IMG/VR virus record: IMGVR_UViG_3300050821_002969
Span: 1-64,000 of that record
Reading direction: 5' to 3' (one strand)
From: a virus
Lineage: Duplodnaviria > Heunggongvirae > Uroviricota > Caudoviricetes
DNA: 64,000 nt
The translations under genes and the position numbers were made by a program. Under the pieces are notes generated by a model. It saw only the letters and a program-made list of their open reading frames with translations. It was not told where the DNA came from and did not search any database. The first letter of the stretch is position 1. Each line of letters begins with the position of its first letter. Below, piece by piece: positions 31,170 to 31,233 of this stretch.

Positions 31170-31233
31170 TTGCTCTACCCACTGAGCTACCCCGGCATGT
31201 TTTTATGGGGCCGGGGGATGGATTTGAACCACC
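31170..31233 (-). other. Split or circularly permuted tRNA-like locus: 3' half (T-arm, acceptor 3' strand, CCA) then a 9-nt spacer then 5' half (acceptor 5' strand, D-arm)
   Basis: The minus strand reads GGTGG-TTCAAAT-CCATC-CCCCGGC-C-CCA (plus 31206-31233), then TAAAAACAT, then GCCGGGG-TA-GCTC-AGTGGGTA-GAGC-A (plus 31196-31170). The acceptor strands are perfectly complementary. Neither half has a partner in the normal co-linear position. Confidence 0.45.

What the first reader, a model, noticed from the sequence alone, without database searches (positions are those of the whole stretch)
31170..31233. Circularly permuted or split tRNA-like gene between the SPFH operon and the upstream block
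A tRNA 3' half (T-stem GGTGG/CCATC, canonical T-loop TTCAAAT, acceptor 3' strand CCCCGGC, discriminator C, encoded CCA) lies directly upstream of a tRNA 5' half (acceptor 5' strand GCCGGGG, U8-A9, D-arm GCTC-AGTGGGTA-GAGC). The two are separated by only TAAAAACAT and both are on the minus strand. The acceptor strands are perfectly complementary, yet the order is 3'-half then 5'-half. Neither half has a partner in the co-linear position: there is no anticodon or T-arm downstream of the D-arm and no acceptor 5' strand upstream of the T-arm. Possible anticodon-stem complements exist in the flanks (ACCGA after the D-arm; ACGGT before the T-arm). This is the layout of permuted pre-tRNAs known from a few algal and archaeal genomes and, to my knowledge, not described in phages. 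It could also be a tRNA gene scrambled by a recombination or homing event, or an attachment-site-like remnant, although no integrase is nearby. The T-arm and acceptor pattern resembles an initiator-like tRNA (GG-TTCAAAT-CC, CCCC...CCA).
Basis: seen in the sequence. Interest (0 to 1): 0.85.

Follow-up and report, generated by a model that had tools for sequence, protein, structure and literature searches.

The report
Phage permuted tRNA mimic RNA
The odd "3' half then 5' half" tRNA is real: it is the core of a conserved phage non-coding RNA that folds like a circularly permuted tRNA (as bacterial Y RNAs do) and always follows a gene for an uncharacterised protein (DUF7873), a pairing I found in no paper and no Rfam family.

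Summary
On the minus strand, 31233-31172 reads T-arm, acceptor 3' strand, C, CCA, UAAAAACAU, acceptor 5' strand, U8-A9, D-arm. It is neither chance nor a scrambled tRNA. The same module follows a DUF7873 (PF25283) gene on the same strand in 74 of 79 sources tested, median 159 nt from the gene's end. These include cultured Rhizobium, Gordonia, Ralstonia, Klebsiella and Vibrio phages. All 20 base pairs covary (98.3% paired in 74 sequences). The tRNA tertiary nucleotides are near-invariant. N-CCA follows the 7-bp acceptor stem in 61 of 75 copies. The layout is that of YrlA-type bacterial Y RNAs, which are permuted tRNA mimics, and Rfam's YrlA model gives the only match (28.4 bits, gathering score 69). 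However, the Ro60-binding motif is absent and no Ro60 gene is in the window; only a few relatives have one nearby. The downstream SPFH gene is incidental. The module is part of a roughly 360-nt structured RNA (31396-31039). I read it as a tRNA-mimic RNA partnered with DUF7873. It is probably cut by RNase P at 31197/31196 and trimmed to CCA, as shown for Mycobacterium smegmatis YrlA. Its function is not established. It is a new variant of a known kind.

The parts
31398..32159 (-). DUF7873 (PF25283) gene, 253 aa, the conserved protein-coding partner directly upstream of the RNA
   Evidence: Pfam E=8.5e-65. There are 1250 homologs, and the best 120 are 58-93% identical. The same gene precedes the RNA in L002, L092, L102 and L122 and in 80 IMG/VR loci.
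31285..31396 (-). Module 0: long-range stem UUUCGGGA (31396-31389) / UCCCGAAGG (31293-31285). It encloses a hairpin (31388-31373) and repeated YU(C/U)AGR motifs (CUUCAGGAU, CUUAGGCU, AUCAGGUG, CUCAGGUU).
   Evidence: Read from the sequence and from close relatives L126, L131, L132 and L213-L216, which keep (G)UGGGG.../...CCCCGAAG and UUCAGGGU. Not tested statistically.
31140..31262 (-). Module 1: the whole permuted tRNA-like domain with its outer stem (GCAAU-G-CGAGGACU ... AGUCUUCG-GG-AUUGC)
   Evidence: MFE folding gives the outer stem. The tRNA-like fold is -40.9 kcal/mol against an MFE of -42.7. The outer stem has different sequences but pairs in every close relative. Flank duplex energy is -18.1 against -11.5 kcal/mol for shuffled flanks, and 63 of 75 are better by more than 3 kcal/mol.
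31238..31241 (-). Closing ('anticodon-stem-like') helix, 5' strand CGGU, which pairs with 31170-31167. It is preceded by the conserved A-rich UAGAAA (31247-31242).
   Evidence: All 4 pairs show compensatory changes, and 94% of cells are paired.
31217..31233 (-). T-arm GGUGG-UUCAAAU-CCAUC, preceded by the 4-nt variable region GUGC (31237-31234)
   Evidence: The T-loop UUCRANU is invariant or nearly so. G53-C61 is present in 73 of 74 distinct sequences (column counts). The helix is 99.5% paired with covariation.
31206..31216 (-). Acceptor 3' strand CCCCGGC, discriminator C (31209) and encoded CCA (31208-31206)
   Evidence: The 7-bp acceptor helix is 100% paired, and 7 of 7 pairs covary. CCA follows the discriminator in 61 of 75 family members, and the discriminator itself varies.
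31197..31205 (-). A-rich single-stranded connector UAAAAACAU that closes the acceptor stem. It is the predicted excised or trimmed spacer, with U at -1.
   Evidence: Its length ranges from 7 to 80 nt and its sequence is not conserved apart from A-richness. U is at -1 in 46 of 75.
31188..31196 (-). Acceptor 5' strand GCCGGGG plus U8-A9. The predicted RNase P cleavage site is between 31197 and 31196.
   Evidence: U8 is present in 75 of 75. The cleavage is inferred from M. smegmatis YrlA (PMC4201824) and was not tested.
31172..31187 (-). D-arm GCUC-AGUGGGUA-GAGC
   Evidence: A14 is 75/75, G18 and G19 are 74/75 and A21 is 75/75. The Levitt pair 15:48 covaries: G:C 67, A:U 5, A:C 3.
31158..31170 (-). 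Closing helix 3' strand ACCG (31170-31167) followed by the conserved unpaired motif A-AUCAGGGU (family consensus R-A-U-N-A-R-R-N-U)
   Evidence: Column counts. The triplet after the conserved U is CAG, UAG, AAG, UAA or CAA in 50 of the 67 copies that carry that U.
31115..31131 (-). Conserved linker box GAUGUCAAGCUGCGAAC
   Evidence: GAUGUCARRCUGCGA is shared with L002/L131, L213, L214 and L215.
31086..31102 (-). Module 2: anticodon-arm-like hairpin ACGGU-CUUGAAA-ACCGA. It looks like the remnant of the co-linear tRNA or tRNA-like unit that relatives carry at this place.
   Evidence: L215 has a whole tRNA-like unit here with the same loop, CUUGAAA. L131 and L213 have a CAU tRNA-like unit, and L126, L214 and L132 have hairpins with 7-nt loops. 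A single ARAGORN tRNA starts 30-50 nt after module 1 in 13 of 60 loci.
31039..31070 (-). Terminal GC-rich hairpin GGGGGCUGAUAGC-AGGCAC-GCUAUCGGCCCCC, with a conserved loop and no U-tract
   Evidence: It is conserved with compensatory changes and the same AGGCAC loop in L126, L131, L213, L214 and L132. The terminator scan does not call it.
29122..30930 (-). SPFH/Band_7 gene (602 aa) downstream. It is listed only to say that it is NOT part of the conserved unit.
   Evidence: Pfam Band_7 E=5.6e-30. tblastn and phmmer find no homolog next to the RNA in the related loci, apart from a weak SPFH-like ORF 8 kb away in L122. Its closest homolog (LR756502.1, locus L001) has no such RNA upstream.

Best explanation
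The element is the tRNA-mimic core of a structured phage non-coding RNA of about 360 nt (31396-31039, minus strand). This RNA is transcribed with, or directly after, the DUF7873 gene. The core folds into a tRNA L-shape whose chain is circularly permuted. The RNA's own 5' and 3' flanks pair as an outer stem and a 4-bp closing stem, and they take the place of the anticodon arm. The acceptor stem is closed by a connector that begins with the discriminator and CCA. This is the architecture of YrlA-type bacterial Y RNAs. Shown here: the fold, its conservation and covariation, the conserved tRNA tertiary nucleotides, the conserved N-CCA, and the obligate linkage to DUF7873. Inferred: (1) the window's copy has a 7-bp acceptor stem, C73-CCA and a single-stranded A-rich connector ending in U(-1), so host RNase P cuts it 5' of G31196 and 3' exonucleases trim it to CCA at 31206, as shown experimentally for M. 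smegmatis YrlA. That would leave a two-piece tRNA-like RNA held together by the acceptor, closing and outer stems. (2) The RNA works with the DUF7873 protein as a ribonucleoprotein. By analogy with Ro60 and Y RNA, one module would bind the protein; candidates are the repeated YUCAGR/AUNARRNU motifs and the outer stem. The tRNA-like elbow and acceptor end would engage a tRNA-recognising host or phage factor. (3) The process served is tRNA-related (tRNA quality control or repair, or titration of a tRNA-binding enzyme or toxin), because the unit sits in or beside tRNA arrays and sometimes next to Ro60, a CCA-adding enzyme or Thg1.
For: Anatomy. Rfam's only match in the region is YrlA, over the full model 1-114, at 28.4 bits and E=8.6e-4. 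The element is conserved at the syntenic place behind DUF7873 in L002 with compensatory changes. An unbiased scan plus a complementarity filter found 7/7-complementary permuted modules. Four of them sit behind DUF7873, one lies immediately upstream of a bona fide Ro60 gene, one lies downstream of a DUF2828+DUF7788 gene and one upstream of a weak-vWA gene. Covariance model R1 hits downstream of DUF7873, on the same strand, in 74 of 79 sources at E<=1e-9, with 4 more weak hits and 1 with none. The median distance is 159 nt. Covariation: 98.3% paired, 20 of 20 pairs with double changes, score 0.914 against 0.222 shuffled (0 of 500 shuffles reach it), and slid controls 29-50% paired. Tertiary nucleotides and N-CCA. 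Ro60/TROVE genes abut the DUF7873-RNA unit in L178, L156 and L151, and Ro60-like vWA proteins occur in L162, L137 and L163. CCA-adding-enzyme-type and Thg1 genes are immediate neighbours in 3 loci. tRNA genes flank the unit in many loci, and DUF7873 lies inside the tRNA array of Rhizobium phage RHph_Y65. The RNA is present but unannotated in cultured phages. Precedent for RNase P cleavage and a CCA end in a 7-bp-acceptor YrlA: PMC4201824, section 8, and 10.1101/312249.
Against: No experiment or RNA-seq shows that the RNA accumulates or is cleaved. DUF7873 has no detectable RNA-binding fold or any structural relative, and its pI is 6.6, so the ribonucleoprotein idea rests only on gene linkage. 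The fixed position about 150 nt behind the gene fits a cis-acting 3'-UTR element equally well. Fourteen of 75 relatives lack CCA, and some close the acceptor with an extended helix, so a free CCA end cannot be the universal function. The YrlA Ro60-binding motif GNCGAAN0-1G is absent (2 of 75). No Ro60 was detected in the 64-kb window. The Rfam score is far below the gathering score.
Confidence: 0.55

Rival explanations
1. The element is a cis-acting 3'-UTR or operon-processing element. The tRNA-like structure is an RNase P entry site, as mascRNA is for MALAT1. It would define and protect the 3' end of the DUF7873 mRNA, or release the downstream tRNA, and would have no trans-acting role of its own.
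For: It is always on the same strand, 105-591 nt (median 159) behind the DUF7873 stop. No convincing independent promoter is seen; the only minus-strand match in range is a 9/12 site inside the end of the ORF. The terminal hairpin has no U-tract. A single co-linear tRNA starts 30-50 nt downstream in 13 of 60 loci. The RNase P determinants are conserved: a 7-bp acceptor stem, the T-arm, N-CCA, and U at -1 in 46 of 75.
Against: The conserved features exceed what I understand RNase P needs. From my own knowledge, acceptor-plus-T-arm minihelices suffice as RNase P substrates, and that was not tested here. Those features are the full D-arm, the Levitt pair covariation, the closing stem, the AUNARRNU motif, the outer stem, the module 0 repeats and a terminal hairpin with a conserved loop. 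Members without CCA and with an extended closed acceptor helix would be poor RNase P substrates yet keep everything else. The co-occurrence with Ro60-type genes points to a trans-acting Y-RNA-like role.
Confidence: 0.2
2. The element is an ordinary Ro60-bound YrlA Y RNA whose Ro60 gene lies elsewhere in the phage or host genome, outside the 64-kb window.
For: The architecture is the same, and Rfam YrlA is the only match. A Ro60-adjacent phage copy (L107) scores no better on Rfam (34.1 bits) and scores like the DUF7873-linked ones on R1 (53.7 bits). Three DUF7873 loci have TROVE genes next door. Only part of the source genome is visible.
Against: The GNCGAAN0-1G motif is absent from the window and from 73 of 75 relatives. 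About 90% of DUF7873 loci have no Ro60-like gene within 4 kb, whereas published YrlAs lie within 4 kb of Ro60 (PMC4201824). In L178 a high-scoring YrlA (60.7 bits) upstream of Ro60 coexists with a separate DUF7873-linked RNA (30.7 bits), so the two behave as distinct RNAs.
Confidence: 0.1
3. The element is a genuine permuted or split tRNA gene. After the acceptor loop is opened and the outer stem is removed and the ends ligated, or as a two-piece molecule, it becomes an aminoacylatable tRNA used in translation.
For: The acceptor end, N-CCA and tRNA core are complete. The conserved unpaired strand after the closing stem reads like positions 32-38 of an anticodon loop: A-U-NAR-R-N, where the triplets CAG, UAG, AAG, UAA and CAA are all leucine anticodons. 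From my own knowledge, phages often carry RNA ligases. The YrlA authors themselves raise this possibility (10.1101/312249, Discussion).
Against: There is no bulge-helix-bulge motif; in the window the internal loop is 7 x 12 nt. Bacteria are not reported to have tRNA splicing endonucleases (10.1101/312249). Position 31:39 would be an A-A or G-A mismatch. The 4-nt variable region and the variable discriminator do not fit leucine identity. No G3:U70 is present (1 of 74). Fourteen of 75 lack CCA. ARAGORN finds nothing here. In the transcript the motif is a bulge in a continuous helix, not a hairpin loop.
Confidence: 0.07
4. The element is a chance juxtaposition, two adjacent tRNA genes mis-parsed, or a tRNA scrambled by recombination or integration (an att remnant).
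For: Tandem tRNAs do mimic the pattern. L040 (Lys-Lys) and L067 (Arg-Arg) scored 6-6.5 of 7 in the same scan. An HNH endonuclease-like ORF lies about 1.2 kb upstream.
Against: There is no 5' half upstream and no 3' half downstream. The element is conserved at one genomic position across DUF7873 proteins of 32-93% identity, with compensatory changes in every helix.
Confidence: 0.01

Closest known systems
YrlA-type bacterial and phage Y RNAs (Rfam RF02553; Chen et al. 2014, PMC4201824; crystal structure of Salmonella YrlA, bioRxiv 10.1101/312249)
   Same: The strand order is the same: stem from the 5'/3' ends, variable region, T-arm, closed acceptor stem-loop, D-arm, back to the stem. The tRNA tertiary nucleotides are the same, including Levitt-pair covariation. 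There is no anticodon loop. YrlAs are already known from phages (22 bacteriophages). The M. smegmatis member, with a 7-bp acceptor stem, is cut by RNase P and ends in CCA in vivo.
   Different: The GNCGAAN0-1G Ro60-binding motif is absent. The RNA is not next to Ro60 but always next to DUF7873. CCA is genomically encoded in 61 of 75 copies, whereas it is added post-transcriptionally in M. smegmatis and absent in Salmonella. There is an additional conserved AUNARRNU bulge, an upstream module with repeated YUCAGR motifs, a downstream tRNA or tRNA-like unit and a terminal hairpin. The Rfam score is 28-36 bits against a gathering score of 69.
Circularly permuted tRNA genes of Cyanidioschyzon merolae and other algae and archaea (Soma et al. 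2007, as cited in 10.1101/312249)
   Same: The 3' half is encoded upstream of the 5' half. The acceptor strands are joined by a short linker that must be opened by RNase P or tRNase Z. The 5' and 3' ends of the transcript pair.
   Different: Those precursors carry a bulge-helix-bulge motif cut by the splicing endonuclease and yield a normal tRNA with an anticodon loop. Here there is no BHB and no clean anticodon arm, the hosts are bacterial, and a subset has no CCA and a closed extended acceptor helix.
Two-piece (permuted) tmRNA of alpha-proteobacteria and some cyanobacteria (own knowledge)
   Same: The gene order is permuted, with the CCA-bearing acceptor piece upstream. An intervening segment is excised to give a two-piece tRNA-like molecule.
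   Different: tmRNA has G3:U70, no true D-stem, pseudoknots and a tag reading frame. Here positions 3:70 are C-G, the D-arm is canonical, there is no tag ORF and ARAGORN gives no tmRNA call.
mascRNA/MALAT1-type tRNA-like 3'-end processing elements, and aminoacylatable 3' tRNA-like structures of plant RNA viruses (summarised in 10.1101/312249)
   Same: A tRNA-like fold sits at the 3' side of a longer transcript and is recognised by RNase P or CCA-related enzymes.
   Different: Those are co-linear, not permuted, and they are eukaryotic or plant-viral. The plant-virus structures mimic an anticodon domain and are charged.
'Novel tRNA-like molecule' linked to SPFH/Band-7 modules in RNA-repair operons (Burroughs & Aravind 2016, NAR 44:8525; recalled from the abstract, since PMC5062991 could not be opened)
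   Same: In the window the RNA lies directly upstream of an SPFH/Band_7 gene, and the wider family touches RNA-repair-type genes (Ro60, CCA-adding enzyme, Thg1).
   Different: I could not compare sequences or structures. In my data the SPFH linkage is not conserved. Whether their RNA is the same family is an open point, and it could lower the novelty.

Membership tests
YrlA / bacterial Y RNA (RF02553) | A tRNA-like domain in the order T-arm, closed acceptor stem-loop, D-arm, with conserved tRNA tertiary nucleotides | tested here: met
   All helices covary. The T-loop, U8, A14, G18G19 and A21 are near-invariant, and the 15:48 pair covaries.
YrlA / bacterial Y RNA (RF02553) | The 5' and 3' ends of the RNA pair in a long stem that replaces the anticodon arm | tested here: met
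   for the window, for relatives. The outer stem is 7-8 bp with different sequences in each close relative.
YrlA / bacterial Y RNA (RF02553) | GNCGAAN0-1G motif near the 5' end (the proposed Ro60 contact; PMC4201824) | tested here: not met
   The window has AUGCGAGGAC with no match. A regex finds the motif within 80 nt upstream in only 2 of 75 family members.
YrlA / bacterial Y RNA (RF02553) | Encoded within about 4 kb of a Ro60/TROVE gene on the same strand | tested here: not met
   The neighbours are DUF7873, SPFH and small ORFs. There is no TROVE among the 18 ORFs scanned with Pfam (all but one of the 13 minus-strand ORFs of at least 250 aa, plus the ORFs flanking the locus) and no tblastn hit with three Ro60-like queries over the whole window. 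The 2142-aa ORF at 21114-27542 and many smaller ORFs had tblastn only. Only 3 related loci have TROVE adjacent.
YrlA / bacterial Y RNA (RF02553) | Rfam gathering score (69 bits) | tested here: inconclusive
   The window scores 28.4 bits. However, a copy adjacent to a bona fide Ro60 gene in L107 scores only 34.1, and only L178's reaches 60.7, so the threshold does not separate the classes in phages.
YrlA / bacterial Y RNA (RF02553) | Physical binding to Ro60/Rsr | not testable with these tools
   Needs immunoprecipitation.
Circularly permuted tRNA gene (Cyanidioschyzon type) | The 3' half lies upstream of the 5' half, and complementary acceptor strands are joined by a short linker | tested here: met
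Circularly permuted tRNA gene (Cyanidioschyzon type) | A bulge-helix-bulge motif formed by the transcript termini, for the splicing endonuclease | tested here: not met
   In the proposed window structure there is a 7-nt by 12-nt internal loop between the closing and outer stems, with no 3-4-3 BHB. The flanks between the two stems differ in length and sequence among relatives.
Circularly permuted tRNA gene (Cyanidioschyzon type) | Joining the ends reconstitutes a 5-bp anticodon stem and a 7-nt loop with a defined anticodon matching the identity elements | tested here: inconclusive
   An A-U-NAR-R-N string follows the closing stem. However, 31:39 would be A-A or G-A, the stem has 4 bp, the discriminator varies and the variable region is 4 nt, so this is not a coherent leucine identity.
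Circularly permuted tRNA gene (Cyanidioschyzon type) | A mature linear tRNA, via a circular intermediate, is detected in vivo | not testable with these tools
   Needs tRNA-seq or circular RT-PCR.
Two-piece permuted tmRNA | G3:U70 alanine identity, a tag reading frame, pseudoknots and a degenerate D-arm | tested here: not met
   Positions 3:70 are C-G in the window, and G3:U70 occurs in 1 of 74. The D-arm is canonical. ARAGORN, which from my own knowledge also models permuted tmRNAs, reports none.
Tandem (dimeric) tRNA genes, the known false positive of YrlA searches | A complete tRNA on each side: a 5' half upstream of the T-arm and a 3' half downstream of the D-arm | tested here: not met
   ARAGORN and Rfam tRNA find nothing in 30700-31700. 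True tandem cases in the same scan (L040, L067) are called as tRNAs.
DUF7873-linked permuted tRNA-mimic RNA (family delimited here) | Lies 105-591 nt downstream of a DUF7873 gene on the same strand, matches model R1, has a 7-bp acceptor stem followed by N-CCA, and has an R-A-U-N-A-R-R-N-U motif after the closing stem | tested here: met
   The window is a seed of R1 (105 bits, by construction). Independent members appear.

The most novel reading that the evidence does not exclude
DUF7873 and this RNA form a previously unrecognised, widespread phage ribonucleoprotein. In it a circularly permuted tRNA is opened by host RNase P into a two-piece, CCA-ended tRNA look-alike. It would then act as a decoy or adaptor for host tRNA-directed machinery, such as tRNA-targeting defence toxins, the CCA-adding enzyme, synthetases or the ribosome. 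In the strongest version it is aminoacylated or matured into a working, leucine-like tRNA, which would be the first functional permuted or split tRNA in bacteria or phages.
Probability: 0.15. Interest if true: 0.9.

Novelty: new variant of a known kind. Interest (0 to 1): 0.62.

Why it matters
Permuted tRNA mimics (YrlA Y RNAs) are known only as partners of Ro60, and what their tRNA-like domain does is still open. Here the same kind of RNA is tied to a different, highly conserved protein of unknown function, with more than 1200 homologs. It carries a genomically encoded CCA and sits in or near phage tRNA arrays. That gives a second, independent handle on what tRNA mimicry is for. It assigns a first functional context to DUF7873. 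It also flags an unannotated RNA gene, sometimes mis-annotated as small hypothetical ORFs, in cultured phages of Rhizobium, Gordonia, Ralstonia, Klebsiella and Vibrio, where it can be tested directly; DUF7873 itself also occurs in Arthrobacter, Serratia and cyanobacterial phages, whose RNA regions I did not check. If the RNA is cleaved to a free CCA end, it would be a natural two-piece tRNA-like molecule made by a phage.

Tried and rejected
1. A megablast of 30000-32500 against GenBank phages gave no match.

2. The nearest record by the SPFH protein is LR756502.1. It lacks the RNA and has a DUF805b motif at that place instead, so SPFH was dropped as the partner. tblastn and phmmer confirmed this.

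3. An exact-pattern scan with the window's own acceptor sequence found nothing in viral contigs.

4. A scan for the D-arm plus ATCAGGG found only co-linear odd tRNAs (L003/L005, L004), not homologs. This used the single metagenome scan.

6. The census of immediate neighbours showed no dominant family.

7. Burroughs & Aravind 2016 and the 2020 Ro60 review could not be opened. Literature searches for DUF7873, and for SPFH with tRNA-like and RtcB, found nothing.

8. I considered a group I intron or permuted intron-exon arrangement. Rfam gave no intron hit, and the flanks form simple stems.

9. I considered CsrA-sponge-like GGA repeats in module 0. The motif is not GGA across the family (for example AUUAGAUU, AUUAAGCU), so I dropped this.

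10. I considered alternative pairing between the closing stem and the downstream hairpin, which have identical stems in the window. This is not conserved in L131, L214 or L215, so it is left as unexplained.

11. The first MAFFT alignment with flanks (A2) mis-registered the outer stem. I used a trimmed alignment (A3) for the model instead.
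Full report
**1. Observation**

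On the minus strand the window reads as follows:

- ...GCAAUGCGAGGACU-AUAGAAA-CGGU-GUGC
- T-arm: GGUGG-UUCAAAU-CCAUC (31233-31217)
- Acceptor 3' strand CCCCGGC (31216-31210), discriminator C (31209), CCA (31208-31206)
- Connector UAAAAACAU (31205-31197)
- Acceptor 5' strand GCCGGGG (31196-31190), then UA
- D-arm: GCUC-AGUGGGUA-GAGC (31187-31172)
- A-ACCG-AAUCAGGGU-AAG-AGUCUUCG-GG-AUUGC...

ARAGORN ordinary tRNAs at 44.6-52 kb but nothing here. Rfam's tRNA model is silent in 30700-31700 even at E<=10. So the T-arm has no 5' half upstream and the D-arm has no 3' half downstream.

**2. First lead**

The only Rfam match in the region is YrlA (RF02553, Y RNA-like). It covers 31257-31143 on the minus strand over the full model, at 28.4 bits and E=8.6e-4, far below the gathering score of 69.

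YrlA RNAs are bacterial Y RNAs. Their ends pair in a stem, and their middle is a tRNA-like domain in exactly this order: T-arm, closed acceptor stem-loop, D-arm (PMC4201824). Their crystallographers describe them as resembling circularly permuted tRNAs with closed acceptor stems (10.1101/312249). [quoted passage not shown] The Mycobacterium smegmatis member has a 7-bp acceptor stem. It is cut by RNase P and carries CCA in vivo (PMC4201824, section 8).

**3. The expected partner is missing and another appears**

The flanking genes are DUF7873 (PF25283, 31398-32159, E=8.5e-65) upstream and an SPFH/Band_7 protein (29122-30930) downstream. None of the 18 ORFs scanned with Pfam carries TROVE. tblastn with three Ro60-like proteins finds nothing in the whole window.

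The SPFH gene's closest relative, in the 642-kb uncultured phage LR756502.1, has no such RNA upstream. In contrast, the one IMG/VR contig with a close DUF7873 (80% identity, L002) has a homologous element at the same place. It carries compensatory changes in the acceptor, T, closing and outer stems, and its unpaired UAGAAA and AUCAGGGU are conserved.

**4. An unbiased test**

I then scored complementarity between the 7 nt after the T-stem and the 7 nt before U8.

- The distribution is bimodal. Most hits, which are neighbouring tRNAs, score 0-4.
- A separate group scores 7/7: the window, L002, L122, L102, L101, L092 and L043.
- L107 scores 6.5 and L014 scores 6. Neither overlaps an ARAGORN tRNA.
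- The tandem isoacceptor pairs L040 and L067 are ordinary tRNAs.

Pfam on the neighbours gives the following.

- L092, L102 and L122 have DUF7873 directly upstream (E 1e-65 to 1e-74).
- L107 has a bona fide Ro60 (TROVE plus vWA_Ro60) directly downstream of its RNA copies, which is a classical phage YrlA locus.
- L043 has a DUF2828+DUF7788 protein directly upstream of the RNA.
- L101 has a 519-aa protein with a weak vWA match directly downstream of the RNA.

**5. Family size and structure**

DUF7873 has 1250 homologs at E<1e-5, and the best 120 are 58-93% identical to the window's protein.

An alignment-based search retrieved 80 IMG/VR loci with DUF7873 at 32-80% identity. I built a covariance model (R1) from four sequences: the window, L002, L126 and L130.

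- R1 hits downstream of DUF7873 on the same strand at E<=1e-9 in 74 of 79 non-redundant sources.
- It hits weakly in 4 more and not at all in 1.
- The core begins 105-591 nt (median 159) after the gene.

On the 74 distinct sequences:

- 98.3% of cells are paired.
- All 20 pairs show changes on both sides.
- The covariation score is 0.914 against 0.222 for shuffles (0 of 500 reach it).
- Sliding the partners drops pairing to 29-50%.
- The acceptor helix is 100% paired, with 7 of 7 pairs covarying.

This alignment was fitted to the model, so the pair counts lean towards the model's structure. The margin is nevertheless very large.

Nucleotide conservation:

| Feature | Count |
|---|---|
| T-loop U, U, C, R, A (first five positions) | 72-75 of 75 each |
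| G53-C61 | 73 of 74 distinct sequences |
| U8 | 75 of 75 |
| A14 | 75 of 75 |
| G18, G19 | 74 of 75 |
| A21 | 75 of 75 |
| C48 | 70 of 75 |
| Levitt pair 15:48 | G:C 67, A:U 5, A:C 3 |
| CCA after the discriminator | 61 of 75 |
| U at -1 | 46 of 75 |
| Discriminator base | variable: U 31, C 25, G 11, A 8 |

In the 61 copies with CCA, the connector is single-stranded and A-rich. The other 14 include copies whose acceptor helix simply continues for 3-13 more pairs.

In the window, the tRNA-like fold costs -40.9 kcal/mol against an MFE of -42.7. In L002 the MFE is itself the tRNA-like fold.

**6. The larger RNA**

Close relatives (L126, L131, L132, L213-L216) show that the whole intergenic region is conserved.

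- Module 0 starts right after the stop codon. It is a long-range stem (G)UUCGGGG.../...CCCCGAAG enclosing a hairpin and 4-5 YUCAGR repeats.
- Module 1 is the permuted tRNA mimic. Its 7-8-bp outer stem differs in sequence but pairs in every relative. Examples: CGAGGACU/AGUCUUCG, GUGAGUUC/GAACUCAU, GCAAAUUC/GAGUUUGU, GCAAGCUC/GGGCUUGC, CAGGACUU/AAGUCCUG.
- A conserved box, GAUGUCARRCUGCGA, follows.
- Module 2 is a co-linear tRNA-like unit in L131, L213 and L215. In the window, L126, L214 and L132 it is reduced to anticodon-arm-like hairpins with 7-nt loops.
- A terminal GC-rich hairpin has a conserved AGGCAC loop.

Across the wider family, a single ordinary tRNA starts 30-50 nt after module 1 in 13 of 60 loci. 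Duplex energies between the flanks (-18.1 against -11.5 kcal/mol for shuffled flanks; 63 of 75 better by more than 3) support an outer stem family-wide. My flank extraction was wrong for the two minus-strand rows, the window and L102. The window's stem is shown separately.

**7. Context**

There is no dominant neighbour apart from DUF7873. The unit does recur in tRNA-related surroundings.

- It lies inside the tRNA array of Rhizobium phage RHph_Y65.
- It lies beside tRNAs in many loci.
- It is next to CCA-adding-enzyme-type genes in two loci and next to Thg1 in one.
- TROVE/Ro60 abuts it in L178, L156 and L151. Ro60-like vWA proteins are nearby in L162, L137 and L163.
- In L178 a high-scoring YrlA (60.7 bits) sits upstream of Ro60, and a separate RNA follows DUF7873 (30.7 bits). 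The two therefore behave as distinct RNAs in one locus.

The published Ro60-contact motif GNCGAAN0-1G occurs in only 2 of 75 members and not in the window. SPFH is not a conserved neighbour.

The RNA is present but unannotated, or overlapped by small 'hypothetical' ORFs, in these cultured phages:

- Rhizobium RHph_Y65
- Gordonia Ronaldo
- Ralstonia phiRSL1
- Klebsiella KpLz-2_45
- Vibrio D505

**8. DUF7873**

The AlphaFold model (pLDDT 85, pTM 0.56) alternates long helices with beta-hairpins. The following all give nothing significant:

- Foldseek against PDB
- BFVD
- a profile search of PDB sequences
- PHROGs, NCBIfam and PADLOC

Its pI is 6.6. Its role is therefore unknown, and the link to the RNA is purely genomic.

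**9. Interpretation**

Shown:

- The element is a real, conserved, structured RNA.
- It is a circularly permuted tRNA mimic with the YrlA architecture.
- It belongs to a large family that is tied to DUF7873 rather than to Ro60.

Inferred:

- RNase P cleaves at 31197/31196 and the 3' end is trimmed to CCA at 31206. The basis is the 7-bp acceptor stem, N-CCA, the single-stranded connector, U at -1 and the M. smegmatis precedent.
- The RNA acts together with DUF7873 as a ribonucleoprotein in a tRNA-related process.

Rivals:

- A purely cis-acting 3'-UTR or processing element. The fixed spacing behind the gene and the absence of a clear promoter or terminator favour it. The extent of conservation argues against it.
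- A classical Ro60-bound YrlA whose Ro60 gene lies elsewhere.
- A true permuted tRNA gene. The conserved A-U-NAR-R string after the closing stem is intriguing: its triplets CAG, UAG, AAG, UAA and CAA are all leucine anticodons. But there is no BHB motif, no coherent identity set, and a subset has no CCA.
- Chance, tandem tRNAs or recombination debris, which are excluded.

**10. Novelty**

What I could not find described is the DUF7873-linked family with encoded CCA and its accessory modules. No Rfam 15 family reaches its gathering score here, no paper mentions DUF7873, and searches on permuted tRNA in phages or tRNA-like phage RNAs found nothing relevant.

One caveat applies. From memory, Burroughs & Aravind 2016 mention a 'novel tRNA-like molecule' linked to SPFH/Band-7 modules. 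I could not open that paper, so overlap with their RNA cannot be excluded.

Verdict: a new variant of a known kind, of moderate to high interest.

Noticed in passing
window 31086-31102 versus 31238-31242 and 31166-31170 (minus strand); L126 about 11040-11060: The small anticodon-arm-like hairpin downstream (ACGGU-CUUGAAA-ACCGA) has exactly the same two stem strands as the closing stem of the tRNA-like module (ACGGU ... ACCGA). In L126 the two stems also match 4/5 (UGGU/CCAA) although the sequence differs from the window. This would allow an alternative pairing (a:d plus b:c). It is not seen in L131, L214 or L215, so it may be coincidence or local gene conversion.
   Followed up: partly
window 31285-31396 (minus strand), and the same place in L126, L131, L132, L213-L216: Right after the DUF7873 stop codon there is a second conserved structured module. 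It is a long-range stem enclosing 4-5 repeats of YU(C/U)AGR (for example CUUCAGGAU, CUUAGGCU, AUCAGGUG, CUCAGGUU), the same short motif as the AUCAGGGU bulge of the tRNA-like module. It could be a repeated protein-binding site.
   Followed up: partly
L003 1039-1128 (same as L005 714-803; 518,809-bp contig) and L004 11913-12014: These are co-linear but aberrant tRNAs in other phage contigs: acceptor, D-arm, then GCUUC-AUCAGGG-AUA..., a G-rich hairpin, and the T-arm. For L003/L005 ARAGORN reports 'tRNA-???' with a 2-nt anticodon 'ca'; it makes no call for the L004 copy. They carry the same AUCAGGG string in the anticodon-loop position as the window's permuted RNA.
   Followed up: partly
L004 12063-12137: ARAGORN calls a tRNA with a 4-nt anticodon (ggtt), a possible frameshift-suppressor-like tRNA in a 36-kb viral contig.
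   Followed up: no
L001 3950-3984 (LR756502.1, 642-kb uncultured phage): A DUF805b RNA motif (RF02914, 39.4 bits, above the gathering score of 35.6) sits directly upstream of the homolog of the window's SPFH gene. The window has a loosely similar hairpin plus AGAGAGAGG at 30935-30985 that Rfam does not call.
   Followed up: no
L215 2326-2838: A phage-encoded ribosomal protein bL12 (L7/L12) homolog (NCBIfam TIGR00855, E=3.4e-35) is inserted between the DUF7873 gene and the tRNA-mimic RNA in one metagenomic contig.
   Followed up: partly
L171 5153-5227, L122 1824-1896; hairpin loops in L126, L214 and L132: The tRNA or hairpin that follows the permuted module often has a stop-codon-reading anticodon. 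ARAGORN calls 'tRNA-Stop' (tta) in L171 and L122. The loops CUUCAAA and CUUCAUA (UCA) and CUUUAAA (UUA) occur in close relatives of the window.
   Followed up: no
L136 5419-7677, L138 5913-8147, L139 5501-7810: ORFs of about 750 aa with a Cas12f1/TnpB-like TNB domain lie directly downstream of the RNA and tRNA unit in three related contigs. This suggests a mobile element inserted next to the tRNA-like locus.
   Followed up: no
L167 3161-3528: A phage-encoded tmRNA (tag DKSYALAA) lies about 500 nt upstream of the DUF7873 gene. This locus has only a weak R1 hit (25.8 bits).
   Followed up: no
window 44644-51982 (minus strand); 46322-46394: There is a large tRNA array (24 ARAGORN tRNAs, all on the minus strand) 13 kb from the element. 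Rfam finds one more tRNA at 46322-46394 that ARAGORN misses. No Phe, Trp or Ala tRNA is seen in the window.
   Followed up: no
window 30950-31312 (+); L211 4489-4698 (Gordonia phage Ronaldo gp125); L126 10649-11237: Gene callers place spurious ORFs over the RNA: a mechanical 120-aa ORF on the opposite strand in the window, 110-aa and 88-aa ORFs in L126, and the annotated 'hypothetical protein' gp125 in Ronaldo. These annotations are probably wrong.
   Followed up: partly
window 32453-32797 (minus strand): An HNH endonuclease-like ORF (PHROG 338, E=2.3e-5) lies two genes upstream of DUF7873. It is not conserved in related loci.
   Followed up: no
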